Shown: piece after piece, positions 1 to 29,475 of the stretch
Layout: each line of letters starts with the position of its first letter
Position numbering within the stretch: position 1 is the stretch's first letter
Notes under the pieces: generated by a model
The model's database searches: none
The model's input: the letters and a program-made list of their open reading frames with translations, nothing else
Told to the model about the DNA's origin: nothing
DNA from: a virus
Taxonomy: Duplodnaviria; Caudoviricetes
Strand: one strand, 5' to 3'
DNA length: 40,863 nt
Virus record (IMG/VR): IMGVR_UViG_3300030397_000743
Location: 1-40,863 of that record
Program-made: the position numbers and the translations under genes

Positions 1-17
1 GTTTCCCAGTCACGATC
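1..17 (+). other. Random-amplification (round A/B, SISPA-type) primer tag; library artefact
   Basis: GTTTCCCAGTCACGATC at base 1; its exact reverse complement is at 40847-40863. Matches the M13-derived primer B tag. Confidence 0.93.
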
Positions 18-19
18 GG

Positions 20-147
20 AGGCGGGTGTTAACGTCCTTGAGTTCTTTGGTGGCATCAATAAAGCGTTTGGTACCAGGAGCCAATGATTTTAATTCTCGG
101 TTTAATGCTTTTGAGCGGCTGATCAATTGGCCCATATTAGCACCGGC
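20..147 (-). repeat. 128-bp inverted copy of 4448-4575 (tape measure gene); probable amplification chimera
   Basis: Reverse complement matches 4448-4575 base for base and begins right after the primer tag. Confidence 0.9.
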
Positions 148-4237: not shown

Positions 4238-6985
4238 ATGGCAATACAGCAAGACAAGGTTCAGATCATCGTTGATATCGAAGCGCAACAAGGCGTTAGG
4301 GCATACCAGCAACTGCTCGATGAATCCAGGCAGGTCAATGATGCCATGCGACGGATGAAACGATTGGGAAAGGAGAATTCCGAAGAGTTTAAGAAGCTGG
4401 AAAAGCGAGCATCTGAACTAAATAATGAACTGGCTGAATTAGGCGGTGCCGGTGCTAATATGGGCCAATTGATCAGCCGCTCAAAAGCATTAAACCGAGA
4501 ATTAAAATCATTGGCTCCTGGTACCAAACGCTTTATTGATGCCACCAAAGAACTCAAGGACGTTAACACCCGCCTGCGAGCTATTAGAGATCAAACCCGT
4601 GGTGTCAGCGAGGCCATGCAAGAAGTACGAATTGCAGGCATCAAACTACCTGATGGCCTAGTGAAAGGCATCAACGGAGTGAACACTGCTTTCAAGGCCT
4701 TGATCGCCTTGCAAGTCATTCAGTATTTCGTTGAATTGTTCCAATCGATCGACGAAACGACCAAACGCATGGTTAAGCTGCGGGGAGAAGTCGAACAGTT
4801 CACCGATGCAACCGGGCTACAGCTCGACAACTACACCACCAGAGTGGCCGCTATTTCGCAGACCTTCGGCGAAGAAACCGATCAAGTCCTGAAAGCAGCT
4901 AATGCCCTGACCAAACAACTCACTGGTGATTTTAGCGAATCACTGGACCTCATCGAGAAGGGCTTTCTGGCCGGAGCCAACCGAGGCGGCGATTTCCTGG
5001 ATCAGGTAAAGGAATACCCCACCTTCTTCCGGGAAGCCGGGCTATCCGGTGAGCAGATGATCAGCACCATTACCCAAAGTGTGGATCAGGGGGTTTTCAG
5101 TGATAAAGGCGTGGATCAGCTCAAGGAATTTGTGCTGCGGATTCGAGAAATGCCGAAAGCGACCGCTACCGCATTGAAAGCCATTGGCCTATCAAGTACT
5201 GAAATCCAAAAGGAGATCGAAGAGAATGGCATTGGCAGCGCCTTCACCAAAATTCAAAATCAACTGGGTGAGCTGGAAGAAGATGCCCCGGAAGTAGGCT
5301 TGGTATTGGCTGATGTTTTTGGTGGTGCCGGTGAAGACGCCGGGGTGCAATTTATTCGCAATCTGGAGCTGACCGGCGATGAACTGGATCGCTTGATCGA
5401 TACAGGTAATGAGTATACGGCCTTAATGCAGGAACAACTGATCGCCAATGAGGAGCTGGCCGAAGCCGAAAACCGGGTGGCCAAAGGTTTCAGCGATGCC
5501 TCTGGTAGCTTGGGGGTCTACATTACGCAGGTAAAAGCCTTCCTTCTCCGGGTAGCCGCCGATGTTATTGAATTCTTCCGAGATCTGCCAGCCACCGCTA
5601 AAGGGGTGCAAGCCGCTTTCCGGCAGATCATGAATAACATCCAAAACTTCTTCAGCCGAACGGCATTGAACCTGGAGATCACCTACAAGCGAATCAGTAA
5701 ACTAAACCCATTCGGGAAGACCTCCGAACAACTGGATCAGGAAATCGCCGCCTTACGGGAACGCAGAGACGGCATGAAAGAAGAGGTGGTCAATATTATG
5801 CAGGCCTACCGCGAAGGCTACTTGGAAGAACGGGACAACATCAAAACCCGGCAGGCCATCGCCGAAGCCCTTACCCCTCCCCCACATGAACCTACCGTTC
5901 GGGCCAATGTCCGCAAGCAGGTGCGGGATGTGCAAAAGGTAGTCGATGAGGAGATGGCGAAGCTGCGAGCGGAACGAGCCAACGCGCCGGGGGTTGTCCA
6001 AGGATTAGGAGGCACCGGGACTCCTTCAAGTGTTAGCAGCACAGGAGAATCCGGAGTAGCCTCTGAATCCGAACAGGAGCGACTGAAAAATAAGTTCTTA
6101 AAAGCATTGATTACCGAACAAGAATATGAAGATCAACGCTTTGAACTAATCCAACAAGCCTATGATCGAAGACTAGAATACCTCCGCTCCAAATTTGGAG
6201 AAGAAAGCGCCGAATATATTGAGTTTGAAAATCAAAAACTAGAATCACAGAAAGATTATGAGGCGCAACGGCAAGCACTAACTGAAGGCACCGAAGGTAT
6301 TCGAAAACGACTAATTAGAGAAGGTATTGATGCGTTAGGTGTGGCTGTTGAAGAGACTATTAACTTCCTGCATGATGAGGAAGATGCCCGCAAAAAGAAC
6401 AGCCTGGCGTTGAAGGCGTTTTCTATCGGCAAAGTAGTCATCGATACCGAAGAGGCTATCATGTCGATCATCAAAAGCTCTGAAGGTAACCCCGGCAACC
6501 TTTTATTCCCAGGCTTATCGAAAATTATTCAGGCTGCCAAGATTGGCGGGGTTCTTCTTCGCTCAGGGGTAGCGATCAACCGCATCCGCAAGCAAGGCTT
6601 CTATGATGGTGGCTTTACCGGCAACACTGCCCTATTTAAAGATAACAGCGGCCGCAATGTAGTAGGTGCTGTCCATGCTAATGAATGGGTGGCCCCCGAA
6701 TGGATGAACAGGCACCCCAACTATGCCCCCGTCATCGGGTGGCTGGAGCAGATGCGCAAACAAGGCTTCCAGGAAGGAGGCTTTGCCCAGCCGGTCAGCG
6801 GAGCCCCAGCAACCAACGGAGCCGGAGCTGACTTCACCTTCCTTCGTAAAGCCATCGAGGAATTGGCTATTTCTCAGCAAACCATGGCCAAAGAAATTCG
6901 CCGGAAGCAGTTCACGGTTACCACGGGCCAGGTGCGCGATGCCCTGGATGCGGATTATTTGCTGGATGAAAAAAGCTCCTTTTAG
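4238..6985 (+). CDS. Tail tape measure protein (~915 aa)
   Basis: Long Ala/Glu-rich helical protein; core DQVKEYPTFF...DKGVDQLKEF...ADVFGGAGED; C-terminal GFYDGGFTG...VHANEWV. Confidence 0.88.
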   Translation: MAIQQDKVQIIVDIEAQQGVRAYQQLLDESRQVNDAMRRMKRLGKENSEEFKKLEKRASELNNELAELGGAGANMGQLISRSKALNRELKSLAPGTKRFIDATKELKDVNTRLRAIRDQTRGVSEAMQEVRIAGIKLPDGLVKGINGVNTAFKALIALQVIQYFVELFQSIDETTKRMVKLRGEVEQFTDATGLQLDNYTTRVAAISQTFGEETDQVLKAANALTKQLTGDFSESLDLIEKGFLAGANRGGDFLDQVKEYPTFFREAGLSGEQMISTITQSVDQGVFSDKGVDQLKEFVLRIREMPKATATALKAIGLSSTEIQKEIEENGIGSAFTKIQNQLGELEEDAPEVGLVLADVFGGAGEDAGVQFIRNLELTGDELDRLIDTGNEYTALMQEQLIANEELAEAENRVAKGFSDASGSLGVYITQVKAFLLRVAADVIEFFRDLPATAKGVQAAFRQIMNNIQNFFSRTALNLEITYKRISKLNPFGKTSEQLDQEIAALRERRDGMKEEVVNIMQAYREGYLEERDNIKTRQAIAEALTPPPHEPTVRANVRKQVRDVQKVVDEEMAKLRAERANAPGVVQGLGGTGTPSSVSSTGESGVASESEQERLKNKFLKALITEQEYEDQRFELIQQAYDRRLEYLRSKFGEESAEYIEFENQKLESQKDYEAQRQALTEGTEGIRKRLIREGIDALGVAVEETINFLHDEEDARKKNSLALKAFSIGKVVIDTEEAIMSIIKSSEGNPGNLLFPGLSKIIQAAKIGGVLLRSGVAINRIRKQGFYDGGFTGNTALFKDNSGRNVVGAVHANEWVAPEWMNRHPNYAPVIGWLEQMRKQGFQEGGFAQPVSGAPATNGAGADFTFLRKAIEELAISQQTMAKEIRRKQFTVTTGQVRDALDADYLLDEKSSF

Positions 6986-8279: not shown

Positions 8280-9218
8280 TTAATTATTGTCAATCATTTC
8301 CAAGAACTGGGATTCTGTCAACACCTCAATTTCAATTCCTTGCGACACATATTTCTCAACGAGTTGTAGTTTTTTACTAGGCTTACCTGTTGTATATTTT
8401 TCATAATCTCTATCGCCTACAACCAAGAAATTTGTTTTTTTAGTTAATGTATTACTACAATTCCCACCAATTTGCATCACTTTGAACTGTGCTATTTTTC
8501 TCTCCATAGACTGTAAAGCACCAGTAAATACCACCAATTGGCCGAAGAATAAATGGTCTTCAATAAACTTAGTAGGGTCAATTGAAAAGCCCTCAATTCC
8601 TGTTTTCTTATTTGTATTGGCAACTCTGGTCCTAACGTGCTTTTTCAGAGATGGTTTGTAGCCTCCTTTGTAGAGCTTTCCTGTTCTCAACTTCAATTTT
8701 TGACTTATCTCTTCAAAGCTATTTATCTCTTTCTCTTTAAAGAACTCAAGCGCTATGCGAGCACAACCTTCAGCATCAGATAATGCGTCATGATGTTGAA
8801 GATCAAAGCCATAGTATTCACAGATTAAGTTCAGCTTATAGGATGGCATATTCAATATTTGTTTAGCCATCTGGTATGTACATGTATATTCCGTTTCAGG
8901 ATAATCTATTCCATATAAGTCAAGTGTATGCCGTAACACGCTGATATCAAATGCTGCATTATGTGCAATCAGAGGGAAGTCCGTGATATCAGACAATATT
9001 TGTTCGTAAATCACATCAAATTCAGGTTCATTTTCGACCATATCTGAAGTGATGCCATGGATGTATGTATTGTATGAATCAAAGTAGTTGTCTTTAGGCC
9101 TGATAAGGAATGCTTTCTGCTCAATTATCTTAAAGTCTTCTACTTTTACCAATCCCACAGCACAGGGACTAAATCTATTAGAGTTAGCTGTCTCAAAATC
9201 AATCGTTAAAAACTTCAT
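8280..9218 (-). CDS. DEDDh 3'-5' exonuclease (DnaQ/epsilon-like) with C-terminal BRCT domain
   Basis: ExoI IDFET, ExoII AHNAAFD, ExoIII HHDALSDA; BRCT pattern VVFTGAL...GG...TKKTNFLVVG...ESQFLEMI. Confidence 0.9.
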   Translation of the reverse strand: MKFLTIDFETANSNRFSPCAVGLVKVEDFKIIEQKAFLIRPKDNYFDSYNTYIHGITSDMVENEPEFDVIYEQILSDITDFPLIAHNAAFDISVLRHTLDLYGIDYPETEYTCTYQMAKQILNMPSYKLNLICEYYGFDLQHHDALSDAEGCARIALEFFKEKEINSFEEISQKLKLRTGKLYKGGYKPSLKKHVRTRVANTNKKTGIEGFSIDPTKFIEDHLFFGQLVVFTGALQSMERKIAQFKVMQIGGNCSNTLTKKTNFLVVGDRDYEKYTTGKPSKKLQLVEKYVSQGIEIEVLTESQFLEMIDNN

Positions 9219-9663
9219 GACTGCCGCCTTTTAGGTGTATCAGTTGTTGCAACTTTTTTTTGACGCCGACCTTAGGGTCGCATTCAAGTGCTTTTTTAAA
9301 GGCAATAATCGTTTCTTGAATGCGATTACGTTCCAAATACCTCTCTCCTACTTTCCGATATACCTTTGCACCAATTGGTTTAGAGCAACCCGATGCATAT
9401 TTTGATAATGCAATTAATGCCTTATCCTCTTCCCCAAGTTGTTCATAAAGATTAGCTATCCACTTGTACGGATAATGTTGATCAGCTTCATCTAAAAACC
9501 TTGAATAATTCACATAAGAGTCAATGGCTTTCGAATACAAATTGTTATTCTCATAATTCTGACCTTCCCAAAAATACTTTCGTCTACCTTTCAAAATTTC
9601 CGGATCGACACTTAGGGATACCAATTCTTCAGGGAGTAATTCAAGTTCGTCTTTCTGTTCCAT
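9199..9663 (-). CDS. TPR-repeat protein (154 aa)
   Basis: TPR-like helices (YKWIANLYEQLGEEDKAL; YRKVGERY...AFKKALECDP); 20-nt overlap with the exonuclease gene. Confidence 0.75.
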   Translation of the reverse strand: MEQKDELELLPEELVSLSVDPEILKGRRKYFWEGQNYENNNLYSKAIDSYVNYSRFLDEADQHYPYKWIANLYEQLGEEDKALIALSKYASGCSKPIGAKVYRKVGERYLERNRIQETIIAFKKALECDPKVGVKKKLQQLIHLKGGSHEVFND

Positions 9664-12886: not shown

Positions 12887-15800
12887 ATGGTAACGACGAC
12901 ATACTTCGACAAGGACACCATCGAGAAGATCAAAGAGCGCGCCGAACTGGCCGATATCCTGCCCGACTTTGTGCACCTCAAACACAAGGGGAATCAGCTA
13001 CGTGGCAACTGTCCATCTTGCAACGCGGATAAGTTCGAATACAACGAGAAAAAGAACATTTATAAGTGTTGGAACGGTTGTGAAAAAGGAGGTAGCACGG
13101 CTATCGGTTTCCTGATGGATGTGGTGGGGCAAGAATATATGGAAGCTATCAATTACCTCTCTGATCGATATAATATCAAACCCGAAGCCAAGACAGCCCG
13201 CCAAAAGAAGAACGGCAACCGCAAGAACCGCTTCCGGGATTTACAGATGAAGGAGAGCGGCATCCCCAACAAATACCAGCAGTACGTCATCCGGATTGAC
13301 AACAATACGGAGATGTTTAAAGACCGCTACGAATCAGCCACCATTGACCGCTATTGGAACGTGGTGGCCGGGGATGATATGATCCTCAACTATCTGGATA
13401 TCCATGGTCAGCCGATGACCTTCCAGCCCAAAGGCAGCAAGCGGAAGGAGCCCATCATACGGGTGCGGTGGGCGAATCCGGAATTGCATCTGAATAAAGA
13501 TGGCAAATCCATGAAGTACCAAAGCCGTCCCGGTAGCAGCTCGGCACTTTGGATACCTAATCAGCTGATCAGTTCCTTTGCCAAGGAAGAGATCATTGAA
13601 ACGCTAGTGGTGGTAGAAGGGGAGAAGAAAGCCGACCGGCTTTGCCTGGCTGGTGTGCCGGCTGTCGGGATTAGCGGCATTCACAATTTCAGCAGCAGTA
13701 GTACCATGCCGCATGAATTTGAACGGCTGATCAAAGTTTGTGCCATCAGTAACGTGATCTTCCTGCTCGATAGCGATTGGCAGGATCTAAGCATCCACCC
13801 CGGTAAGCCCGTCGACAGCCGCCCGAAAACCTTTGCCAGTGCGGTGATCAAATTCCGAAACTACTTCTATGGCTTCATGGCCTCCGGATACAATCTTCGC
13901 ATCTTTTTCGCCCATGGTACCGATCCGGTTTACAAAGGCATCGATGATGTCATCATGCGACAAATAGAAGGCGATGATGAGAAGATCAGGGAGGACTTTG
14001 CCAAGGCAATCAACGCCAAAGAGAACGGGGGGGATTATGTAAAGGCCTACGACATCACCGAAGCCAGCAGCTACCAGATCAAAATGTATTGGCATCTGCA
14101 CAGCAATCCGGCATTCCTACAGCACTATCATGATGAACTCAGCAAACTGCCCAATTTCAAGCTGGGCAAACTGCTATGGCGCTACAACGAGGAAGGTGAA
14201 GAGTTTGAATTGGCGCAGAAGATATTACCCCATGAACGCTACTGGGAGGAAACCTGGAAGGATAATGCTCCCAAGCCGTCCTTCAGCTTTTACTATCAGG
14301 GCGCTTTACAGTTCCTGTATAACCGTGGGTACGGCCTGTTTGAATACAAGCCCCACAGCTATCGTTTTGTACTGGTCAATGGTAGGGTAGTGGAGGAAAC
14401 GCAACCGATCAGCATCCGGCATTTCATGCTGGACTTCACCAAAGAGATTGATAATAAGCCGGTCCTGGAGTTGCTGCTGCGAGGCGGCAAACAATACTTC
14501 GGCCCGGACAATCTACACAACCTGCCACGGCGGCAGCTGCCGTTTCAAAAAGCCGATCGGCATGTGATGTACTTCTTCTTTCAAAATGTCTACTGGAAGA
14601 TCACGGCCGACAGCATTGAGCAGCGGCCCCTCAGCGAGCTGGAGTACTACATCTGGAAAAATCAGGTGATCGAGTTCGAGCCCAAGCAATTGGACAATCC
14701 TTTGGCAGAGGTCGAACGCAATGGGGAGGCCTGGAACTTTGACTTTAGTGATGAGTTTACCAAGGCCGATATCGCCGGGTACTACCTCTGCACCAGTAAC
14801 TTCTTCTGGAATAAATCCCAGCACCTGGTTGAGGATAAAGAAGGCAATAAATTCTACGCGCAAAAGGAGAAACCGGAGGCCATGACCGACGAAGAGCGGC
14901 AGTTCTTCTATAATAATTTAGCGGCCAAAATGCTGGCTGCGGGTTACGTCATGCACGACTTCCTGAACTACAGCTGCATGAAGGCGATCGTCTGTATGGA
15001 TGGCGCGGAAAGTGCTGTAGGGCAAAGCCAGGGAGGGACTGGTAAATCGATCTGGGGCAAGCAGTTCCAGCATATGGTCCCGATGTCGATCATTGACGGC
15101 AAGAAGAAGAACCTGGAAGATGATAACCACCTCTATGAAAACGTAGATGAGCGCACGAAAGTAATCCTCTACGATGATGTGCGGGTGAACTTCAACTTCG
15201 AATTCCTCTTCAGTCAGATCACCACCGGCCTCACCGTCAACCCCAAAGGGGAGAAGCGGTACGAGATCTTACCTCCCAAGTTCATTATCGCTACCAATCA
15301 CGCCCTCAATGGTGATGGCAATAGCTTCGACCGGAGACAGTACACTATCACCTTCTCTGACTATTTCAATGGCCATCGAACGGTAGGGGATGAGTTTGGC
15401 CATCAGCTATTTCACGAATGGGATTATGACCAATGGAATTTCTTCTACAACTGGATGGCCCAATGCGTCCAACTGTATTTGAAGCATGGTCTAGTAGATG
15501 CCAGTAATGATGGCATGATCAAGCGCCGGAAGCTACGCCAGGAAGTAGGGGAGAGTTTCATCATGTGGGCCTCACTGGTATTTGATACAGAGACCGATGC
15601 CTCCGGGGATTGGTTGGGCATCTACCTCAATAAGCGAGTAGAGAAGATGTGGCTGATGGAGAAGTACCTGGAGGCCAACCGCAAAGCGGTTCGATATATG
15701 GATGACGTGCTCTTCAAGAAGAAGATCAAGGCATATGCTCAGTATGCCGGTCTCACCTTCAACCCTAATCGGGATCCGAAGAAGAACGGCGACCGGATCA

Positions 15801-16021: not shown

Positions 16022-16023
16022 TA

Positions 16024-16321
16024 AATCAGTCCACCCCCTTTTTATTTTTTTACTCTTTTCTCTAAAACAGGACCTGGGTAAAATTAGTTAAAGGGGCTGG
16101 ACTTTTGGACTGTTACTATCTAACGCACTGAAAAACAAGTACTTAAAGCAGTCCACCCCAAAAGTCCAAAAGTCCAAAAGTCCAACAGACCAGTGGACTG
16201 TTTGAAAGTCCACCACAGTCCAACGGGGGGTGGACTGATTGGGCTGCATATAAACAATTGAATACCAAAGCATTATAAGCCATGAGAAATCAAAAAGTCC
16301 AAAAGTCCAGCCAAAAGTCCA
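16024..16321. repeat. Iteron cluster; probable replication origin
   Basis: About 14 AGTCCA/TGGACT copies in both orientations, including tandem AAAAGTCC; 15-bp inverted repeat at 16024-16038 / 16226-16240; AT-rich spacers. Confidence 0.75.
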
Positions 16322-16563: not shown

Positions 16564-16951
16564 CAAGAAAGATTATCCGGAAGATTGGCCAGCTATCCGC
16601 GCACGCATCCTGGAGCGGGCTGGTTATTGCTGCGAACATTGCGGAGTACCGCGATACGCGGTAGGCTACCGAGAAGGGGAGGATCGTAAGATGATTACCC
16701 TCATCGTCGGCGAATCATTCAGCGAAGCCAACTCTCTCCGCTACCGGATGCAGGAAGCCATGGGTCGCAAACTGATCGTCATCCGCTTAACCACCGCCCA
16801 TCTCGATCACAACGAATGGGATCACAGTGTTACTGATGATCGCCTGGCTTGCCTATGTGAGCGCTGCCACTTCCACCATGACAAACTGGACAATCAGCTT
16901 CGCAAGAATTACGGGAAGCATTATAAACGATATCAATTGCAACTATTATGA
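16553..16951 (+). CDS. HNH-like endonuclease
   Basis: RILERAGYCCEHCG...LTTAHLDH...LACLCERCHFHHD. Confidence 0.75.
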   Translation: MPINKKDYPEDWPAIRARILERAGYCCEHCGVPRYAVGYREGEDRKMITLIVGESFSEANSLRYRMQEAMGRKLIVIRLTTAHLDHNEWDHSVTDDRLACLCERCHFHHDKLDNQLRKNYGKHYKRYQLQLL

Positions 16952-17520
16952 TGAAATCAAAATTCACTTTCGGTCTATTATTCTGGATTGTTATTTATCT
17001 GATCTATACTTCCTGGGAGCCAACAGCTCCTCCCGGTGAGGCATTGATGATGGATGAAGCGGACCCGGTGGCTGAACAGGTCACCAAGGTATCAACGATC
17101 AAAGCCAAGGACTTCCCTGGTAACAATTACATCACCGGCACCCTTAGCGCTGAAAACCTGCAAAGCTTATCTGACGCCGGAATTAGGATCATTATCCGGT
17201 TGAATGGTGACTCGCAGGATGATCGCGGTTTCCTGAGTCTTGCCGAAGAGGCTGCCATTTGTCGCCAACTTGGCATGCAATTCTATTACTTCAACATTGA
17301 AGGCAAGCTGGAGGAGTCCGGGGATATGATTCACAACCTACTGACTAATGGAAACGCGGTCATCCACTGCCGACACGGTGCGCACCGAGCCCCTAGCATG
17401 GCCGCCTATCATCTGCAAAAGGAAGGTTATCCCAAAGATTGGATCATAAAGAAAGTGGGTTGGGAACAGTTGGTTCACAATCCTGGAAGATACGAACGGT
17501 ACACCAAGATATTAACCTGA
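16948..17520 (+). CDS. Cys-based phosphatase (PTP/DSP superfamily) with N-terminal membrane anchor or signal
   Basis: HCRHGAHR matches CX5R; LSDAGIRIIIRL and EEAAICRQLGMQF are DSP-like; hydrophobic N-terminus FTFGLLFWIVIYLIY. Confidence 0.8.
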   Translation: MMKSKFTFGLLFWIVIYLIYTSWEPTAPPGEALMMDEADPVAEQVTKVSTIKAKDFPGNNYITGTLSAENLQSLSDAGIRIIIRLNGDSQDDRGFLSLAEEAAICRQLGMQFYYFNIEGKLEESGDMIHNLLTNGNAVIHCRHGAHRAPSMAAYHLQKEGYPKDWIIKKVGWEQLVHNPGRYERYTKILT

Positions 17521-20887: not shown

Positions 20888-22750
20888 ATGAGGCTACGTA
20901 TCGGTAAAAACGGACAGTACCTAGACCTTCGCCGGGGAACCAGCGTTCAGCTTGATATGACCTCCCCGCTTTACTTTGCGGAGAATAGGGGTAGTGTGTT
21001 TCCAAGTGTTAAAACGTACTCCTTTGGTGTACCGGATACCGCCCACAATCGGCTGATGTTGAACCGGCCTGCGGAACTGGATAACCCTACACCATTCATT
21101 GATGAATCAGGCTGGGTCATTGAGTTTGACGGATACATTATTCTGGAAGGAAAACTTGAGGTAGAAGATGGGGTACACGAAAGCGATATAAAAATCACCT
21201 TCATCGGGGGCTTGGCTGGTAACCTGGAAGCCCTGAAAACTTTGAATCTTAGAGACCTGCCATTGTCATCCATCAGTTTAGGGTCGACCCCCGCCGAAGC
21301 CCTGACTACCTTGGCCGAATGGGTGGATGATACCGAAGCCGACTATGTACTTCCAATGATCCGGGTAAATGCTACGGGGGAGCTACAGGATAACACGGAT
21401 GATGATACCGACAATCCGACGCCAACTGTATACACCTTCCTGAATTACTACCGGGCAGGGGCTTTCTTATTATCCGATGATGATCAAGCGTTCCCGTCAC
21501 CCGGCGACAGTTTCCCCTTTGAATCGACCATGGCCCCCATGCCGTGGCTGCGGGATATCCTGGAGCTGGCTTTGGCTCAGGTTCAGTATTCATTATCCGG
21601 CGTATTCGATAGCCACACATTAGCCGACGAACTCAACAAGCTGATCATCTTCAGCAACTACACACTAGATGAGCAGGTCAGCCAACCGAGCACCGGTGAT
21701 CTATCTTTTGAAAATGTGGCCATCAATACTACCTATCATCCAGCTCGCAGCCTTCCGAATATCAAAGCGGCTGATTTGATCAAAGCCATTTGCAATCTCT
21801 TTTGTTTGGCACCGGTGCTGGATGCTACCGGCAGCCGGCTGATATTGGTAGCCTGTCCGGATACCCTTGATCCTTTGCCATCCAAGAACTGGACGGCTAA
21901 AGTAGATCCCCGGTTTCTCCGTGGCCGACCGCTGGAAGATATCCCGCAGGAATTCAGATATGAAGACCCTAGTGAAGGATACAGCAGCAGCAGAACCCGG
22001 TTATTCAGATTGTCGGAGGTAGACTATTCGTTTGAAACGGCAGCTGATGCAGAGGCAGCCTTGACGGTGGATGATGAATTCCTACTCATCTATATCGCAG
22101 AGCTCAATGAATTCTTCTACACCCGTAAGGCGACATTAAACAGCGGCCCGGATGTGATCGAGTATTTGTTCCTGTTTCCCAGGGGGAAAGATTTAGGGGT
22201 CATCAATGAAGGCGGGGTTCCCAGCTATTCGCCCAACTGCACCACCTTGCACACCATTACCCGGACGGACATCAACGGATCACCAACTGGGGAGGTACTA
22301 TTCTATAATGGCTCTGATGTAGCGGATGGCCCTCGGTTAAGTACCGCTTTTTACGGAGACTTACAAACGCCTTTGCAAGAGGGGAGTCCTCTGGAAGAGT
22401 TGATCTTTTTGCTGTATCGCGGATTGGTGACCGCCAGAGACGGCGACAAAGTACCCCATGCTGGTTCAGGCCTCTATAATTATAATGGTTCTCAGATCGG
22501 TCAAATGTCATTACACTGGTCGGGAAATTTCGGATTGTATGAAAAGTGGTGGCGCAAATGGATGGAAGCATTACAGGCTATGCGGCCCGTCAGTTACCCG
22601 ACTCGCCTTACTGCTATTGATCTTTCGCAGTTGGATTGGACCAAGAAAGTGTTGATCGACAAGCACCCGTATTTCATCAAAAAAATTCAGGTCACATTGA
22701 CCACGGATACGATCTTATCAGCCAATGTGGAATACATGCAAATAAATTAA
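20888..22750 (+). CDS. Tail tip/baseplate hub-like protein (620 aa)
   Basis: N-terminal YLDL..GTSVQL.MTSP...TYSF.VP.T.HN; LPNIKAADLIKAI; C-terminal KVLIDKHPYFIKKI. Confidence 0.6.
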   Translation: MRLRIGKNGQYLDLRRGTSVQLDMTSPLYFAENRGSVFPSVKTYSFGVPDTAHNRLMLNRPAELDNPTPFIDESGWVIEFDGYIILEGKLEVEDGVHESDIKITFIGGLAGNLEALKTLNLRDLPLSSISLGSTPAEALTTLAEWVDDTEADYVLPMIRVNATGELQDNTDDDTDNPTPTVYTFLNYYRAGAFLLSDDDQAFPSPGDSFPFESTMAPMPWLRDILELALAQVQYSLSGVFDSHTLADELNKLIIFSNYTLDEQVSQPSTGDLSFENVAINTTYHPARSLPNIKAADLIKAICNLFCLAPVLDATGSRLILVACPDTLDPLPSKNWTAKVDPRFLRGRPLEDIPQEFRYEDPSEGYSSSRTRLFRLSEVDYSFETAADAEAALTVDDEFLLIYIAELNEFFYTRKATLNSGPDVIEYLFLFPRGKDLGVINEGGVPSYSPNCTTLHTITRTDINGSPTGEVLFYNGSDVADGPRLSTAFYGDLQTPLQEGSPLEELIFLLYRGLVTARDGDKVPHAGSGLYNYNGSQIGQMSLHWSGNFGLYEKWWRKWMEALQAMRPVSYPTRLTAIDLSQLDWTKKVLIDKHPYFIKKIQVTLTTDTILSANVEYMQIN

Positions 22751-22756
22751 AATTCA

Positions 22757-22788
22757 CTTGCGAAATTCATTATCTAATTGTATATTTG
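22757..22788 (+). promoter_or_regulatory. Host primary-sigma promoter (Bacteroidota type)
   Basis: CTTG-20 nt-TATATTTG; exact TAnnTTTG -7 element. Confidence 0.75.
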
Positions 22789-22793
22789 ATAAC

Positions 22794-22956
22794 GAAGAAA
22801 CCGATACCATTTTCAATTCATTTCTACCTCAAATGTCAATTACTTTAATTCAAGATTAGGAGCCAAGGCAGGAAACTAGAAAGGGTGGTACCTTTCGGGT
22901 TTACTCCGTATCTCATTTGAGGTAAATGGTAGGTTTCTTCACCTGCTTTGGTCTCC
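22794..22956 (+). ncRNA. Candidate regulatory RNA with interleaved pairings (C4/CI-like architecture)
   Basis: 22794-22835 is complementary to 22914-22940; 22859-22872 is complementary to 22942-22956. Confidence 0.55.
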
Positions 22957-23046
22957 GTTATTTTTCCTCCATCCATCTATTCCATCTCATTCTGAGGGCT
23001 TCAATCGCATTGATTGAACGCATGATATTTCATCCTGCTTTGTCAA

Positions 23047-23081
23047 CCGGAAGCTGGTGTCGCGCTGGCTTCCGGGTTTTT
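23047..23081 (+). terminator. Intrinsic terminator within the leader
   Basis: CCGGAAGCTGGTG-TCG-CGCTGGCTTCCGG followed by GTTTTT. Confidence 0.6.
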
Positions 23082-23225
23082 GAAAAAACGTGTCAGTTTT
23101 TGAAAATACCCTGATTCCAGGGTCGTAACAGTTTTTAAAAATATTCAAGCCCCGTAAAGCTTGGAGGCCCGGAATAGGGTAAAGAGGGATAGGGGGTATT
23201 TTGGAAAAACAGTCGAATAATCGAA

Positions 23226-23993
23226 ATGGTACTAACGAGACTTGGAAATAAAAAATCAGTTGCATCGGACATTTACCGGTACTTCCGTCCTCATCGAATG
23301 CGGATCACCCTGTTCTTTGGTGCCGGTGGACTTTGGTTTAATACTCCACGTGCTCAGTACAATGTCATTAATGACCTGGACGACAATATCACGAATCTAT
23401 TCTTGGTCATCACGGAGCAGCCAGATGAGTTGATCGATGCGCTGTTGTCAATGCCAGTATCGGATACTTTGCTAAAGAAGTGGAGAGCGGAGCAGCCAGA
23501 GGAACCCGTATTAAAAGCAGTTAGTTTTTTGCTTGCATCAAACTTCACCTACTTGGGGAAAGGTGATAGCATCCGGTACAGCGTCGGAAATGAAAAGGCG
23601 GTATTGGTAAAGAGAATCCATGAATGCCGGTTGCGGCTTGGTGACTCCAGGATAATGTGCACCGACTTTCGCGAAGTACTTCCAAAAGTTTCATTTAGCC
23701 ACAAGGTAGCAGCAAAAGAAGATTCCTTCATTTACTTGGACCCCTGCTATTTAGATACATCAAGCACTTACAAAGTACCCAAGTGGACCAAGGAAGACAC
23801 ATTTGATTGCTTTGAGATCATGGACAAAGAAGGAGTTCCTGCAGCAATGAGTGAATTTGATCACCCCTATGTGATGGAGCAGGCTTTAAGCCGTGGATTT
23901 ACTGTAATACCGATCAAGAATCGGAGGAACATCAAAGGCAGAAGCAACGAAATTTTAATAACCAATTACAAGCCGCAAGGCCTGTTATTCTAA
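23226..23993 (+). CDS. DNA N6-adenine methyltransferase (Dam/D12 class)
   Basis: LGNKK, LFFGAGG (motif I), VINDLD, FIYLDPCY (motif IV variant), EILITNY. Confidence 0.85.
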   Translation: MVLTRLGNKKSVASDIYRYFRPHRMRITLFFGAGGLWFNTPRAQYNVINDLDDNITNLFLVITEQPDELIDALLSMPVSDTLLKKWRAEQPEEPVLKAVSFLLASNFTYLGKGDSIRYSVGNEKAVLVKRIHECRLRLGDSRIMCTDFREVLPKVSFSHKVAAKEDSFIYLDPCYLDTSSTYKVPKWTKEDTFDCFEIMDKEGVPAAMSEFDHPYVMEQALSRGFTVIPIKNRRNIKGRSNEILITNYKPQGLLF

Positions 23994-24003
23994 AACGAGC
24001 GTC

Positions 24004-24558
24004 ATGCAAGTAAGACGACTACGAAAAATATTGAACACCACTCGCCCAATTGCGGACTTTGGAAATTATATCGCCGTAGGTTCTCCGATGTGCCACGATT
24101 TAATCTCGGTTGACAAAAAGACTATGCGGATTAGTTATGCGCTAGATACGTTTCGCAAGGGACGCCCTTCGGTTGACAACAAGGACGACTTGGGAGGCAT
24201 TTGGGATCAATTGCAAAAGCTAATCGATTCGGGCATTTTGGCTGAAATCATTGCAAACGACGATCCGATAACTGATAGCTGCGTAAAGGTTTATACCTAC
24301 AGGGGTGGAAAGGTGATTGAGAAATACGCCTACGAATTTGGATGGCCAAACTCTACCGTTGACGGTGAAATGATGTATAAAAACACGCACTTCTTAACCT
24401 TTGATGATGCCACTCAACGTGGTATAAATGAAGAAACCGCAGCTGTTAACTCGTTAGACCGTCGCTTAAAGGAATTAGAAGAGAGGAAGCGAAAAGCTTT
24501 TGAAGAACTTAGAGTGTGCCAAGAGAATCTGAAATCAATTCAATCACTTATCAAATAA
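24004..24558 (+). CDS. Hypothetical protein with C-terminal coiled coil (184 aa)
   Basis: Closely packed ORF in the cassette array. Confidence 0.75.
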   Translation: MQVRRLRKILNTTRPIADFGNYIAVGSPMCHDLISVDKKTMRISYALDTFRKGRPSVDNKDDLGGIWDQLQKLIDSGILAEIIANDDPITDSCVKVYTYRGGKVIEKYAYEFGWPNSTVDGEMMYKNTHFLTFDDATQRGINEETAAVNSLDRRLKELEERKRKAFEELRVCQENLKSIQSLIK

Positions 24559-24570
24559 ACCAGCGACAAG

Positions 24571-24717
24571 ATGAAAGCTAAAGCAATTCTTTGTGTACTG
24601 GCCTCGATAGCTGCCTTTTTGGTGGAGGGTGTTACATCATCATTAGCCTTTGGGATAGTCGCCGGTTACACCTTGGGCGATTTAATTGACTTCATCATTT
24701 CAATCTTCAAAAAATAG
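24571..24717 (+). CDS. Small hydrophobic membrane peptide (48 aa)
   Basis: MKAKAILCVLASIAAFLVEGVTSSLAFGIVAGYTLGDLIDFIISIFKK; fills the gap between neighbours; below the track cutoff. Confidence 0.6.
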   Translation: MKAKAILCVLASIAAFLVEGVTSSLAFGIVAGYTLGDLIDFIISIFKK

Positions 24718-24775
24718 AGCGGTTCCCCGGAGCGATCCGGGCCGCTTTCACAAACAGTCGAATAATCAGAACATC

Positions 24776-26407
24776 ATGGCAAGGAAAAATTCATACATAA
24801 CAGCCACCGATCAGTTTTGTGGTGCCGGTGGCAGCACCTCTGGTGCAAAAAAAGCCGGTGTTGAAGTTAAGATGGCACTTAACCATTGGAGCCTAGCCAT
24901 TGAGACGCATAATACTAACCACCCCGAAACCGACCACGATTGTACCGATGTGCAGGCTTGTGATCCTCGACGTTACCCTAGCACGGACATTCTCATAACT
25001 TCTCCTGAGTGCACTAACCACAGCCTCGCAAAGGGAGTAAAGCGACGCCAGCGAAACCAGCTAGATATATGGGGTCAGAACAACATACTACCTGAAGCTG
25101 AGCGAAGTAGAGCGACTATGTGGGATGTACCACGCTTTGCGGAGTATCACGATTACAATGTTGTTATTGTCGAAAATGTAGTAGATGCGCGTTATTGGCG
25201 AATGTGGGACGCTTGGCTGATGGCTATGCACTCATTGGGATACAAGCATAAGTGCTGCTACCTCAATTCAATGTTCTTTCATCCTTGCCCACAGAGCCGT
25301 GACCGAATGTATGTGGTATTCTGGAAGAAAGGGAATCCTGCACCAGATTTGGAATACCGACCAACAGCCCCATGTCCAACCTGTGGCGATAAAGAGGCTT
25401 TTCAATCATGGAAGCGAACGGATAAGAAGTGGGGGAAGTATAAGCAGCAGTACGTTTACCGATGTTCTGGATGTAATGACATTGTTACTCCCTATTTCTA
25501 TTGCGCAATGAATGTGGTAGACTGGACTGTACCTATTACTCGCATTGGAGATCGCAAAAAGCCATTAGCAGAAAAGACCATGCAGCGAATTCGTTATGGA
25601 TTAGAAAAGTATGCTGGTCGTCAGATGATTGTCACAGGCAGGTATACCTCCGGAATAGGATGTAGGGTGAAAACAGCAGACAATCACCCTTTACCTACAC
25701 AGCCAGGAGACCAGAGTCACTTCCTCCTTAGCTGTGTACAAGTAGGGAGAACTGCATACAACCATAGCGGCCAATCAGCAGACTTCCCAATGAGTACACA
25801 GACCGGCCGCCAAGATGCTTACTTGGTTGTACCTGGTTCCTCGATCGTGGAGCTCAGGAATACAAGTAAGGCCCGTGGTACAGATGAAGCACTAGCTACA
25901 CTTACGGCTGGTGGGTTCAACCATGCTTTATTGGTCCGCAATAATCATGCGAACATTCCCAAGGATTTATCTAGTGCCATTGGAGCTCAGGCTACTGCCG
26001 CACAACACGGACTGTTACTTAGTGGCCATTATCCCGGATGGGTTCGAACCCTAGATAAGCCAGCCGGTACGTTTACCACTACGACACCTCAAGCAATTCT
26101 CACAGGTGGCAACTTATCCGCATTCCTCAGCTATTACTACGGATCAAATAACACCAGCTCCGTGGCTGATGCGATCCATACAGTTACTACCCACGATCGA
26201 GCAGCACTAAACGTGCCGGCCACTAATCCGGAGGACTGTTATTACCGCTGTCTAAAAGCTCACGAAGTCCAACGAGCAATGAGCTTTGCAGATGATTATA
26301 TCGTCTTGGGAACCGCAAAACAGAAGGTAAAACAGTTAGGGAATGCGGTCACTCCACCAGTTATGGAGTGGTTGGTCCAGCAAGCAGTTAATTCACTTAC
26401 AAAATAA
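24776..26407 (+). CDS. DNA cytosine-C5 methyltransferase
   Basis: DQFCGAGG (I), SPECTNHS (IV), VENV (VI), QSRDR (VIII), QLGNAVTP (X); ATG 24776. Confidence 0.93.
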   Translation: MARKNSYITATDQFCGAGGSTSGAKKAGVEVKMALNHWSLAIETHNTNHPETDHDCTDVQACDPRRYPSTDILITSPECTNHSLAKGVKRRQRNQLDIWGQNNILPEAERSRATMWDVPRFAEYHDYNVVIVENVVDARYWRMWDAWLMAMHSLGYKHKCCYLNSMFFHPCPQSRDRMYVVFWKKGNPAPDLEYRPTAPCPTCGDKEAFQSWKRTDKKWGKYKQQYVYRCSGCNDIVTPYFYCAMNVVDWTVPITRIGDRKKPLAEKTMQRIRYGLEKYAGRQMIVTGRYTSGIGCRVKTADNHPLPTQPGDQSHFLLSCVQVGRTAYNHSGQSADFPMSTQTGRQDAYLVVPGSSIVELRNTSKARGTDEALATLTAGGFNHALLVRNNHANIPKDLSSAIGAQATAAQHGLLLSGHYPGWVRTLDKPAGTFTTTTPQAILTGGNLSAFLSYYYGSNNTSSVADAIHTVTTHDRAALNVPATNPEDCYYRCLKAHEVQRAMSFADDYIVLGTAKQKVKQLGNAVTPPVMEWLVQQAVNSLTK

Positions 26408-26416
26408 GGAGCAATT

Positions 26417-26548
26417 ATGCACATCAAATTAACCAAACAATGGACTCTCCATTTTGAAAAATTCAGGATATACCCTTGGTGGTGTTGGGGGGCGGAAGGT
26501 TGGGATATAGGGTTCCTGTTTTTTAACCTCCACCAGGAGATCAAATAA
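26417..26548 (+). CDS. Small Trp-rich hypothetical protein (43 aa)
   Basis: MHIKLTKQWTLHFEKFRIYPWWCWG...; bounded by the junction motif on both sides. Confidence 0.55.
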   Translation: MHIKLTKQWTLHFEKFRIYPWWCWGAEGWDIGFLFFNLHQEIK

Positions 26549-26559
26549 CCAGCGTAGCA

Positions 26560-26757
26560 ATGAACCCGAATAAAGAACAAAAAAGGATTTGCGATAACTG
26601 CCAACATTGTGTTGTTTACATGGGATCAAGAGAACCCGACGACCCACCTAATCAATATTGCGACTTAGGCCACTTTGAGAACGCTTGGCCGGGTGTTGAT
26701 TATGAAGAGGGTGAAGATATGGCCATAGATTGCGAAGATTTTAAACTATCAAAATAA
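26560..26757 (+). CDS. Small Cys-containing protein (65 aa)
   Basis: CDNCQHC...C...C pattern, possibly metal binding. Confidence 0.65.
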   Translation: MNPNKEQKRICDNCQHCVVYMGSREPDDPPNQYCDLGHFENAWPGVDYEEGEDMAIDCEDFKLSK

Positions 26758-26767
26758 GGAGCGAATC

Positions 26768-26989
26768 ATGACAAAATACCAGCGACTAAAAGAAGCAGTT
26801 ATAAATCACCCTTGGGTGCAATCTGTAGAGCCTCACACTCATCAAGGCGAAGCCTATTTGAAGATTGAGTTACTAGATGAATGCGACTCCCAAGATCGTG
26901 ACGAACTGATTTATAAAGCTGAGGAAATAGGAAGTAGTACGCTTATTCCCTCGGATCGGGACACGGAATTTATTTTCAAATACGAATAA
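26768..26989 (+). CDS. Hypothetical protein (73 aa)
   Basis: Closely packed ORF in the array. Confidence 0.65.
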   Translation: MTKYQRLKEAVINHPWVQSVEPHTHQGEAYLKIELLDECDSQDRDELIYKAEEIGSSTLIPSDRDTEFIFKYE

Positions 26990-27000
26990 AGGAGCCTATC

Positions 27001-27207
27001 ATGAATATACTGGAATCCAAGATTCAGGAAATCGCACACTATATAATGAATCAAAAAAAGAACCATCAACGCAATGCTTGGACTAATGATCAAATAAAGG
27101 AACTGTTTCCGGGTGATGATTATGCTAATGCTTGGAGGTTGTTGAAACAAAGGGGGAGGCGAAATGAAACCATGTTTTACGAAGATGGTCTTTGGCACCT
27201 ATGGTAA
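27001..27207 (+). CDS. Hypothetical protein (68 aa)
   Basis: Closely packed ORF; flanked by an 18-bp imperfect direct repeat. Confidence 0.6.
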   Translation: MNILESKIQEIAHYIMNQKKNHQRNAWTNDQIKELFPGDDYANAWRLLKQRGRRNETMFYEDGLWHLW

Positions 27208-27259
27208 TCAATTTTTAATTACGAATAACCGAGCGGTTCGCCGCATAAAACCTAAGACT

Positions 27260-27511
27260 ATGACAATTAAGAAAATGCTAATAGAGGAAGTGGAAATAGG
27301 AATGGCTGTTTTCCACTTTCCACCTGAGCCATACACAAATGGTTACAAACGAGTAACCTCCATTACCCACCACACTATCAATCACGGAGTGGGCGATGTT
27401 CAACAGTACGTACACCTACATCTTTTTACAGGTGAGACATACCAAGTCCTAAGCGGTACTGAAGTTGAAGTCGAAATTATTAACGAGGACCCGGAAGGTT
27501 CCGACAAATAG
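27260..27511 (+). CDS. Hypothetical protein (~83 aa)
   Basis: ATG 27260 after an A-rich leader, in frame with track ORF 27164..27511. Confidence 0.6.
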   Translation: MTIKKMLIEEVEIGMAVFHFPPEPYTNGYKRVTSITHHTINHGVGDVQQYVHLHLFTGETYQVLSGTEVEVEIINEDPEGSDK

Positions 27512-27518
27512 AGGGTTT

Positions 27519-27590
27519 GTGCCTATAGCTCAGGGGTAGAGCATCTGGCTCATAACCAGCAGGCGGGGGGTTCGAATCCCTCTAGGCACA
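27519..27590 (+). tRNA. tRNA with CAT anticodon (elongator Met or Ile2)
   Basis: Acceptor GTGCCTA/TAGGCAC, D stem GCTC/GAGC, anticodon loop CTCATAA, TTCGAAT T-loop; no encoded CCA; lacks initiator features. Confidence 0.88.
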
Positions 27591-27595
27591 CTAAT

Positions 27596-27802
27596 ATGAA
27601 AACCATGTCACACATCAAACATCTACACCAGCAACAACAACAGGCTATTAAAGATATGGCCGAATCCCTACATCAGGGCATTGATAATTACTTGGAGGAG
27701 TTTGGGGATGTCATTGAAGGAGAAGTTACTACTGGAGAAGTCTTTGCTCAGGTAGCTTTTGAATTTGGATTGCTGTCACTCTCAAAAGAATCAGGTGAAT
27801 AA
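27596..27802 (+). CDS. Hypothetical protein (68 aa)
   Basis: ORF immediately after the tRNA. Confidence 0.6.
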   Translation: MKTMSHIKHLHQQQQQAIKDMAESLHQGIDNYLEEFGDVIEGEVTTGEVFAQVAFEFGLLSLSKESGE

Positions 27803-27880
27803 ATTCACAACCGTCCTCGCTTCTCATTCGGTTAATGACTAAATTGTAATTATTAATAGGGTTTTAGGTGTTTATTTCAG

Positions 27881-27910
27881 ATAGCTCGCTTCGGCGGGCT
27901 ATTTTTATTT
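27881..27910 (+). terminator. Intrinsic terminator with C(UUCG)G loop
   Basis: ATAGCTCGC-TTCG-GCGGGCTAT followed by a T-run into GTCCT. Confidence 0.85.
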
Positions 27911-27944
27911 GTCCTGCCTATTCCAGCAAATACCCGCGACATTG
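27907..27944 (+). promoter_or_regulatory. Putative late promoter for the holin operon
   Basis: GTCCT at 27911; CGACATTG at 27937 (26 nt). Confidence 0.5.
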
Positions 27945-28006
27945 ATCCCGTCATCCCTGAACATATATCCACAAACCGATAGAAACACTATTCAAACCGG
28001 GGAGTA

Positions 28007-28537
28007 ATGAGAGACTTGAACAACCGCCACTTCAAAAATGGAGGTGATACAGAAATGAATTTTCAAGAATTATTAATGGAACTGGCACGACAGAATTCTG
28101 GCAAAGCTGCTCTTTCCATCATCGCTTCGTTTGTGTTGGGCCATCTTTTGCCGATCGCTCACTTTATCGGTATCGGTATCCTTTTGGTTACATCTGATTG
28201 GGTCACTGGGGTATGGGCCGCGATGAGGAGAGAAGAAAAGATTACATCTAAGGGATTGCGCCGAACCGTAGAAAAGATCTTCCTTTATTCATTAGCTATA
28301 TTGCTGGTGATGGTTGTGGAGTCGGCATTCTTCCATACGCATATTCTCACCGCTGCGGTGGCGCTTTATATTTCCTTGGTAGAGTTGTTTTCTAACCTGG
28401 AGAACATCAGCGACATAACCGGCAGCAATATCATATCGGCTTTCCGGAAGTCCTTATTTACCCGCTTTCCTGCACTTAAATACATATTCACGAATAAGAA
28501 GGAGCAAGAGCCAAATGATCAAGAAACTTCTGGCTAA
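28007..28537 (+). CDS. Holin (phage holin family 4-like); second start at 28055
   Basis: DWVTGVWAA...ITSKGLRRTVEK...ELFSNLENI motif with 3-4 hydrophobic segments. Confidence 0.8.
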   Translation: MRDLNNRHFKNGGDTEMNFQELLMELARQNSGKAALSIIASFVLGHLLPIAHFIGIGILLVTSDWVTGVWAAMRREEKITSKGLRRTVEKIFLYSLAILLVMVVESAFFHTHILTAAVALYISLVELFSNLENISDITGSNIISAFRKSLFTRFPALKYIFTNKKEQEPNDQETSG

Positions 28538-28608
28538 CATTTCGTATATTCGTATTAGCGATATGATTCGCGGTCAGTGGATACGTGCGGTTTCCATGAC
28601 TTGAGAAA

Positions 28609-29475
28609 ATGCCAGAAGTTGTTCTTAACGTCTCTCCTTTTGTGAAGCGGGTTTTTACCGCCCGTTATGGCGATGAGCCCATCAAGATTCACCGATCGGA
28701 TATTGTTTACCATTACTTGCAAGGAGATCCACTTGTGGCGAATAGGCATAGGTATCGATCTCTTCAAAAGTTGTTAACTGAACAACTAACGCTCAACGTT
28801 TCAAATCTCTTAGCCAGGCGACTACGTTCCCGGAAACGTCAGGTATATGTAGGCTACTACTTGCACAAGGTTTATCAGGATGAGATCCTGGTATTTGTAG
28901 ATGCCCAGGTGAAGGCTGGTATCCCTGCTCAAACATCAATGAAGCAGTGGCTAAATGAAAATGGAGTCCAGGAAGATGATTACGGACTAGACACAGCCTA
29001 TACCTCCTGGAAACGCAAGAAGAACTTCCTATCTAAAATAAAGAGCAGAAACAAAGGAAAAAGCAACACTTTCCAATGTGCTACTGACCCAGTAGAAATT
29101 ATCAAATATGAACAACTGAATCAGGTTCCTGAAGATTATAGAGATGTTATCATTGCGGCGAATGATCATTTCCAGGTTGGGTTCGTCAATTTACTATGTT
29201 GCTCAATTAGAATTGAAAGCGAAGCCAAAACCTTTACCTATATCTATACAGATGACCGTTCAGCCGAAATGGTCTATCCTAGAAAGGTTTTATGCTACGT
29301 CTTGAATAAATATTGTTGGCTTTCCGGATACGACATAGCCAAGTTTGTCAAAGTAAGTCCCTCCAGAATTTACGCTTACATTCGGGAAATAGAGTTTTCA
29401 GCTCAACATTACCCGGAGATTAAATCAGATATAGAAGCTCTCCTTACCCATAATACCAAGCCTATCCCGTGCTAA
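28609..29475 (+). CDS. Putative DNA-binding regulator with C-terminal DnaA-C/TrpR-like HTH
   Basis: RKVLCYVLNKYCWLSGYDIAKFVKVSPSRIYAYIREI resembles the DnaA domain IV helix pattern; basic N-domain. Confidence 0.5.
   Translation: MPEVVLNVSPFVKRVFTARYGDEPIKIHRSDIVYHYLQGDPLVANRHRYRSLQKLLTEQLTLNVSNLLARRLRSRKRQVYVGYYLHKVYQDEILVFVDAQVKAGIPAQTSMKQWLNENGVQEDDYGLDTAYTSWKRKKNFLSKIKSRNKGKSNTFQCATDPVEIIKYEQLNQVPEDYRDVIIAANDHFQVGFVNLLCCSIRIESEAKTFTYIYTDDRSAEMVYPRKVLCYVLNKYCWLSGYDIAKFVKVSPSRIYAYIREIEFSAQHYPEIKSDIEALLTHNTKPIPC

What the first reader, a model, noticed from the sequence alone, without database searches (positions are those of the whole stretch)
22757..23225. A ~430-nt structured leader with an RNA switch in front of the methylase/accessory operon
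Seen: after a strong host-type promoter, GAAGAAACC-GA-TACCATTT and TACCTCAAATG (22794-22835) are complementary to 22914-22940. That segment lies inside a second stem, GGAGCCAAGGCAGG/CCTGCTTTGGTCTCC (22859-22956), which holds an internal GAAAGG/CCTTTC hairpin. The two pairings interleave, so they are a pseudoknot or alternatives. A terminator follows at 23047, and 22975-83 can pair with 23171-79. Established: P1 C4 and P4 CI RNAs are processed from such leaders and pair with flanking targets to cause premature termination. Inference: a Bacteroidota analogue controlling DNA methylation and accessory genes rather than an antirepressor.
Basis: partly seen in the sequence, partly recalled or inferred. 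Interest (0 to 1): 0.7.

Follow-up and report, generated by a model that had tools for sequence, protein, structure and literature searches.

The report
Orphaned C4-type antisense RNA module
In this Bacteroidota phage, a predicted folded RNA built like the C4/c4-2 antisense RNAs of other phages has kept its promoter, fold and self-pairing guide, but lacks the matching start codon that most of its look-alikes carry just downstream, so it is likely an orphaned regulator rather than a dedicated switch for the methylase gene behind it.

Summary
The pairings are real. 22859-22956 folds as a three-way junction (z -5.1), and 27 of its bases pair with the transcript's predicted 5' end (-32.6 kcal/mol; best of 1000 shuffles -24.9).

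The same layout heads ORF6N antirepressor-like genes in Bacteroidota phages (30 leaders analysed) and occurs twice in a related phage. There a guide ending in CA matches the 5' end (28 of 30) and a start codon behind the RNA (24 of 30). One leader scores above the Rfam c4-2 cut-off. This scan noted the design before on other DNA.

The window's RNA meets the promoter, fold and 5'-end rules but has no matching start codon nearby. No covariance model finds it, and no close homologue was found.

Control of the methylase is unsupported. The terminator forms in both folds, none of 240 methylase-homologue loci shows this leader, and a 98%-identical methylase gene sits behind other DNA.

Verdict: an orphaned c4-2-type antisense module heading an inserted accessory cassette. 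No expression data exist.

The parts
22758..22788 (+). Bacteroidota-type promoter (TTG ... TATATTTG), predicted
   Evidence: one of 3 strict matches in the window; no transcript data
22794..22835 (+). 5' target in three blocks (22794-802, 22805-812, 22825-835); first block starts 6 bases after the promoter and reads CG where a start-codon site would read TG
22859..22956 (+). predicted 98-nt three-way-junction RNA: P1 22859-72/22942-56, P2 22873-902, P3 22904-932, single-stranded J3/1 22933-941
   Evidence: z -5.12
22932..22941 (+). guide (GGTTTCTTCA), ending in CA directly before the P1 3' strand; by the family rule it is set for a start reading ATGAAGAAAC
22958..22993 (+). C-rich, G-free, weakly structured tract; possible Rho loading site (inference)
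   Evidence: only such 36-mer on the + strand (threshold set after seeing it); 22957-23046 z -0.66
22977..23042 (+). diverged direct copy of the RNA's 3' half (P3 top and P1 3' strand; TCCTGCTTTG at 23033-42 can pair with the P1 5' strand)
   Evidence: 6 of 2000 shuffles
23047..23081 (+). intrinsic-terminator-like hairpin with a five-T tail
   Evidence: z -4.21; forms in both folds
23076..23141 (+). three copies of a near-palindromic T5-A4 motif (23076/77, 23096, 23131), the only ones on the + strand; role unexplained
23205..24006 (+). exchangeable D12/Dam-like adenine methylase module (gene 23226-23993)
   Evidence: 98% identical piece with other flanks in run X4; a second path enters at 23993 in run X2
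24428..24438 (+). only perfect ATG-type match to the guide, out of frame inside the intact 184-aa gene; candidate site, probably chance
22751..28608 (+). accessory cassette (leader, two methylases, small genes, tRNA, holin-like gene) between the 620-aa and 288-aa genes, which are neighbours in related phages
   Evidence: 9 of 11 loci, from 7 genomes or records

Best explanation
The leader is likely an orphaned c4-2/C4-type antisense module: a predicted host-type promoter would make a short transcript, ending at the 23047 hairpin, whose three-way-junction RNA carries a guide that is complementary to the transcript's own 5' end and would block a start codon reading ATGAAGAAAC, which no gene here has. 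Shown: the folds, the complementarity, the shared layout with related leaders, the missing start-codon site, and the mobility of the methylase gene. Inferred from the layout and from P4/P1: in the growing transcript the 5' end captures the guide first (predicted cotranscriptional folding). Once the 5' part is cut off or occupied, the junction RNA folds and acts in trans on RNAs with the same address. In intact modules that represses the small gene behind the RNA. Here that gene has been replaced by a C-rich tract, a diverged copy of the RNA's 3' half and a terminator. The RNA's remaining partners would be its own precursor and any co-infecting phage RNA with the same address. The methylase cassette would be reached by read-through that does not depend on the switch.
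For: Layout: 23 of 1842 promoter-like sites in fetched loci pass a sequence-blind test (5' site plus complementary guide ending in CA). They are 19 ORF6N leaders, L176, the window and 2 likely chance hits; mismatched controls give 0-6, mean 2.6, per 1675. In 30 leaders the 5' site starts within 8 bases of a promoter-like box in 28, and a start codon behind the RNA matches 6 or more of 9 guide bases in 24, against 27 of 858 crossed pairs. The window meets the first rule (9 bases at +6, with the CG-for-TG change seen in 13 of 30) and fails the second (3 of 9). Its 5' duplex (-33.0, 27 pairs) is close to the median of 27 leaders (-31.3, 28 pairs). The family scaffold covaries (24 of 26 pairs with changes on both sides) and overlaps Rfam c4-2. 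Related phage G304 has two complete modules with other addresses, one with the same P1 start CAAGGCAGG. The terminator is independent of the fold. The methylase moves without the leader.
Against: No covariance model finds the window's RNA: C4, c4-2, all of Rfam and my two family models. The second family model also missed one G304 module and caught only part of the other, so it is insensitive. Pairwise likeness is modest and was tested after the fact: P4 CI 6 of 1000, P1 C4 238 of 1000; G304 first module 6 of 500, L435 2 of 500, four others 22-172 of 500. No close homologue was found, so there is no covariation for this RNA itself. Guide ends were placed by eye, which favours the rules. No trans target was shown. 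The only strict promoter match on the + strand is this one, so the cassette may still depend on it.
Confidence: 0.45

Rival explanations
1. One reading: the RNA switch sets premature termination before the methylase cassette, as P4 CI does. It could act through Rho loading on the C-rich tract at 22958-93, through the distal P1 copy at 23033-42, or through an 8-bp contact between 22802-09 and the terminator loop.
For: The fold is intact and followed by a unique C-rich tract and a terminator with a short tail. The distal P1 copy lies 4 bases before the terminator. No other strict promoter feeds the cassette. CI causes termination in P4 (PMC4825925, section 21).
Against: Terminator pairing is 0.9 or more in both folds, and the alternative P1 has probability 0.01 or less. 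There is no seqC-like site behind the RNA. The 8-bp contact is one of 16 helices of similar strength listed in the region. The methylase is found behind other DNA.
Confidence: 0.2
2. The module is a dead relic: its gene was lost recently and the RNA, even if made, has no effect.
For: The cognate start codon is absent. The cassette is a mosaic with exchange points at 23205 and 23993. No second copy was found in IMG/VR pattern scans or in 151-301 genomes of a related family.
Against: All 27 guide-target pairs and all three helices are intact, while the neighbouring copy of the 3' half has diverged. That suggests selection on the RNA if the copy is old (inference).
Confidence: 0.2
3. The third site is the perfect match at 24428-38, and the RNA silences or cuts short the message inside the 184-aa gene.
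For: The site sequence was predicted before the scan (note, scan). Chance is 18 of 4000 within 22957-24500 and 18 of 2000 within the cassette. The duplex is -16.7 kcal/mol against -19.7 for the 5' site.
Against: It lies 1.49 kb away, beyond the terminator, and opens only a 9-codon out-of-frame ORF inside a full-length gene with 452 relatives. Family sites lie 30-45 bases behind the guide. An equally good 9-of-10 site occurs at 4870 in an unrelated gene.
Confidence: 0.08
4. Translation of the 62-codon ORF 22926-23114, which starts inside P3 and runs through the C-rich tract and terminator, sets read-through (leader-peptide attenuation).
For: The ORF exists and its start codon is paired in both predicted folds.
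Against: No homologue was found among proteins of 34-109 residues, it has no Pfam or PHROG match, and no such ORF is part of the family layout.
Confidence: 0.05

Closest known systems
c4-2 RNA (Rfam RF02944, clan CL00128; Weinberg et al. 2017, PMC5737381, called there a likely distant homologue of a known RNA; main-text passage seen, supplement unreadable)
   Same: Three-way junction closed by a long P1, with P2, P3 and a short strand before the P1 3' side. Bacteroidota leaders of the window's layout match it: L437 51.6 bits (cut-off 41), L418 35.2, L429 32.8, of 20 loci scanned.
   Different: The window's RNA gives no c4-2 match, has longer P2 and P3, lacks the GAAA-type P2 loop and the P1 internal loop, and has no cognate start codon.
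P4 CI RNA with seqA/seqC and P1 C4 RNA with a1b1/a2b2 (Rfam C4 RF01695)
   Same: Same order: promoter, upstream target, junction RNA whose J3/1 and P3 are antisense to that target (P4 record L275 scores 74.9 bits; P1 sites as annotated).
   Different: No C4 match. No downstream target. Pairing runs over the whole P3 3' arm rather than two short sites. A methylase cassette follows, not icd/ant or kil. Processing by RNase P is recalled for C4/CI and untested here.
Bacteroidota 'start-codon clamp' / three-site leaders noted earlier by this scan (e1-5911815, e1-9795453; unchecked AI notes)
   Same: Guide pairs with a look-alike site at the 5' end; addresses vary; found in phages and prophages. I rebuilt this class independently from ORF6N loci.
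   Different: Here the start-codon site is missing and a terminator follows.

Membership tests
C4 antisense RNA (RF01695) | Covariance-model match | tested here: not met
   no match at E <= 10; P4 control 74.9 bits
C4 antisense RNA (RF01695) | Three-way junction with antisense J3/1 and P3 | tested here: met
   (prediction only)
C4 antisense RNA (RF01695) | Upstream target (a1b1/seqA) | tested here: met
C4 antisense RNA (RF01695) | Downstream target (a2b2/seqC) next to the regulated gene | tested here: not met
C4 antisense RNA (RF01695) | Processed, stable small RNA acting in trans | not testable with these tools
   no RNA holder listed
c4-2 RNA (RF02944) | Covariance-model match | tested here: not met
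   only 1 of 20 layout-sharing loci passes the cut-off, so the model covers the class poorly
   9 bases at +6
   same junction as L434; 5' site reads ACG
   best 3 of 9
   no hit with R2 or R3, but R3 also failed on two complete modules of G304

The most novel reading that the evidence does not exclude
The phage keeps a gene-less guide RNA as an accessory weapon. The lysogen makes a processed C4-type RNA addressed to starts reading ATGAAGAAAC, which silences the matching antirepressor or accessory gene of competing phages, or host genes that begin Met-Lys-Lys. It would be an address-programmed, stand-alone immunity RNA traded between phages like a moron gene.
Probability: 0.15. Interest if true: 0.7.

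Novelty: new variant of a known kind. Interest (0 to 1): 0.36.

Why it matters
The case shows that C4-clan antisense modules in Bacteroidota phages are portable units (promoter, 5' site, junction RNA, gene whose first codons match the guide) that land at the head of accessory cassettes and can lose their gene. The rule 'guide equals the complement of the start codon and next bases' is directly testable and lets one read the target from the RNA. I found no paper describing it in six literature searches, but the c4-2 supplement could not be read, and the scan has noted the class before. This single orphan copy matters only if it proves to act in trans or to gate the methylases.

Tried and rejected
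Rfam, whole window and leader: only a tRNA at 27519-90, and three chance matches at E 1.9-9.4.

Homologue hunts that gave nothing usable:
- BLASTN in 50,697 phages: one chance piece.
- IMG/VR patterns: one search gave 34 loci with only short matches; two searches gave 0; one search gave 119 loci of about 150, none with promoter plus strong 5' pairing.
- Single-sequence model R1: 0 of 151 genomes, 0 of 99 loci, 0 of 5 handles.
- BLASTN over 301 genomes: promoter-level or A/T-rich pieces only.
- Gapped pattern over 301 genomes: 69 genomes matched, 30 loci were scored, none had the layout.
- C4 and c4-2 over 151 genomes: 0 and 1 weak hit without the layout.

No RNA holder was listed, which says nothing about expression. 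Runs X1-X3 may be the source of this DNA; they showed no variant in the leader.

A tie between leader and methylase was rejected: no BLASTN or nhmmer match upstream in 240 homologue loci, and the 82%-identical homologue follows another gene by 12 bases. The identity of AAATGGTA at 22924-31 with the methylase start (23224-31) was set aside as chance, because that start also occurs behind other DNA. The guide pairs no better than -11.1 kcal/mol with any of 43 gene starts.

Sabbattini 1995 (PMC176756) was not held.

Full report
Setting. The window is a whole virus record of 40,863 bases: a temperate phage with portal, tape measure, integrase, HTH repressor and primase genes. Its methylase and tail-region proteins have their nearest named relatives in Bacteroidota. 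The finding lies between a 620-aa gene (20888-22750) and a D12/Dam-like methylase gene (23226-23993). In 9 of 11 related loci, from 7 genomes or records, the 620-aa homologue is followed directly by the homologue of the gene at 28609. So 22751-28608 is an inserted accessory cassette and the leader is its head.

Observation. The pairings are as described. The 5' blocks pair with 22914-940 over 27 Watson-Crick pairs at -32.6 kcal/mol; 1000 shuffles give -12.0 +/- 2.7, best -24.9. 22859-22956 folds as a three-way junction at z -5.12. With the 5' end free, RNAfold prefers the locked fold (-53.3); with it blocked, the junction forms (-43.3). In stepwise folding of the growing transcript the lock forms before the P1 3' strand is made. 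The terminator-like hairpin is significant (z -4.21) but has a five-T tail. The 22975/23171 pairing is borderline (43 of 1000 shuffles). New features: a C-rich, G-free tract at 22958-93, unique on the + strand by a threshold I chose afterwards; a diverged direct copy of the RNA's 3' half at 22977-23042 (6 of 2000 shuffles); three T5-A4 motifs at 23076-23141.

No direct homologue. Rfam gives nothing at the leader, including targeted C4 and c4-2 searches. BLASTN, four IMG/VR pattern scans and a single-sequence model found no relative. The genome samples are incomplete, so this is 'not found', not 'absent'. Covariation for this RNA itself is therefore untested.

The class it resembles. A topology scan of 311 promoter-like sites in methylase-homologue and related loci ranked the window fourth and found the same interleaving at L136, L176 and L115. 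The gene behind L136 is an ORF6N antirepressor-like protein. Of 42 IMG/VR loci of that gene I analysed 30 leaders, dropping 5 near-duplicates and 7 without a recognisable junction. They share a layout: promoter, a site at the 5' end, then a three-way junction whose last single strand ends in CA. That guide matches a site within 8 bases of a promoter-like box in 28 of 30; the match is 9 bases or longer in 17 of 30, against 4 of 858 crossed pairs. It also matches a start codon behind the RNA by 6 or more of 9 bases in 24 of 30, against 27 of 858. I placed the guide ends by eye, which favours these counts. A sequence-blind version of the test passed 23 of 1842 sites: 19 of these leaders, L176, the window and two likely chance hits, with 0-6 expected per 1675. 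The scaffold covaries on a model-fitted alignment (24 of 26 pairs; such alignments lean towards the structure). One of 20 loci passes the Rfam c4-2 cut-off and two more match below it, so the class overlaps a catalogued family of the C4 clan. Two genome loci in the family of G001 (L460, L502) and two places in related phage G304 carry further modules with their own addresses. The G304 modules head small genes of 145 and 81 aa, one right after the tape-measure gene and one after a methylase cluster.

Where the window fits and where it does not. Its 5' site starts 6 bases after the promoter, reads CG instead of TG as in 13 of 30 leaders, and its guide ends in CA at the P1 strand as in L434. These three points were not used in the topology scan that led to the class. 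Its 5' duplex is of median strength. But no start codon matches the guide nearby (3 of 9), and no gene start in the window pairs well with it. The one perfect ATG-type match, 24428-38, is out of frame inside an intact gene with 452 relatives; its chance is about 0.5-0.9% over the nearby stretch or the cassette. Two models built without the window did not find it. The second also missed one G304 module and caught only part of the other, so this neither shows nor excludes common descent. Pairwise likeness is modest and mixed. It works like a c4-2/C4 module by layout; membership by sequence is not met.

Does it control the methylase? The evidence is against a dedicated link. None of 240 methylase-homologue loci has a match to the leader, and most follow another gene closely. 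A contig in run X4 holds the gene at 98% identity from 23205 to 24006 with different flanks (low depth, one contig). In run X2 a second path joins at 23993 and the depth nearly doubles, which points to a sibling phage with other DNA in place of the methylase. The terminator forms equally in both folds.

Mechanism. Most likely (0.45) the module was captured with the cassette and lost its own gene. It would still make a short transcript of about 290 nt, and from it the junction RNA, whose only shown partner here is its own 5' end. Transcription, processing and action in trans are inferred from P4 CI (PMC4825925, section 21 read) and P1 c4 (PMC8546580, passages read; P1 record annotation). RNase P processing is recalled, not from a call. 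Rivals: termination switch for the cassette 0.2, inert relic 0.2, distal site 0.08, leader peptide 0.05.

Literature and novelty. I saw passages and supplement hits of PMC2864571 (C4 and c4-a1b1 listed for Proteobacteria and phages; its supplementary text file could not be read) and passages of PMC5737381 (c4-2; supplement too large to read, and it may describe the start-codon pairing). Six searches showed no paper on this Bacteroidota layout. Earlier notes of this scan describe the same class on other DNA; one calls it absent from Rfam, which partly contradicts. Verdict: real structure, new variant of a known kind, moderate to low interest (0.36) unless the orphan RNA proves active.

Noticed in passing
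window 16-147 and 4448-4579: A 132-base, 99% identical inverted repeat between the contig start and the tape-measure gene; probably an assembly artefact at the contig end.
   Followed up: no
L507 (G304), minus strand, promoters ending near 14938 and 1938: Two complete c4-2-like modules with different addresses in one phage, each matching the start of a small gene (145 aa and 81 aa) in the structural region.
   Followed up: partly
L418-L457, about 200 bases upstream of ORF6N genes: A class of leaders whose guide matches both the 5' end and the start codon; L437 passes the Rfam c4-2 cut-off. In many, the matching ATG lies a few codons upstream of the aligned protein start.
   Followed up: yes
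L115 2350-2520: A different interleaved leader: the 5' end pairs with a downstream segment, and a 9-base strand between them is complementary to the loop of a terminator hairpin.
   Followed up: partly
L284 4910-5070: At the position where the window has its cassette, this relative has a promoter, a roughly 95-base hairpin RNA and a T run before the conserved 288-aa homologue.
   Followed up: no
window 27519-27590: A tRNA with anticodon CAT inside the accessory cassette, followed 5 bases later by a 68-aa ORF.
   Followed up: no
window 23993, 27513, 27626: Branch points in the assembly graphs of runs X2 and X3, with depth steps, suggest co-occurring sibling phages that share parts of the cassette.
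   Followed up: partly
window 16022-16290: Iteron-like AAAAGTCC repeats with inverted copies right after the primase gene; likely the replication origin.
   Followed up: no
window 28609-29475: The conserved 288-aa gene has a weak DnaA C-terminal-like match (E 0.008), and several homologues have a promoter-like box just upstream; possibly a late-gene regulator.
   Followed up: no
window 8280-9663 and 16948-17520: A DEDDh exonuclease-BRCT gene with a TPR gene beside the integrase, and a dual-specificity-phosphatase-like gene after the HNH gene.
   Followed up: no
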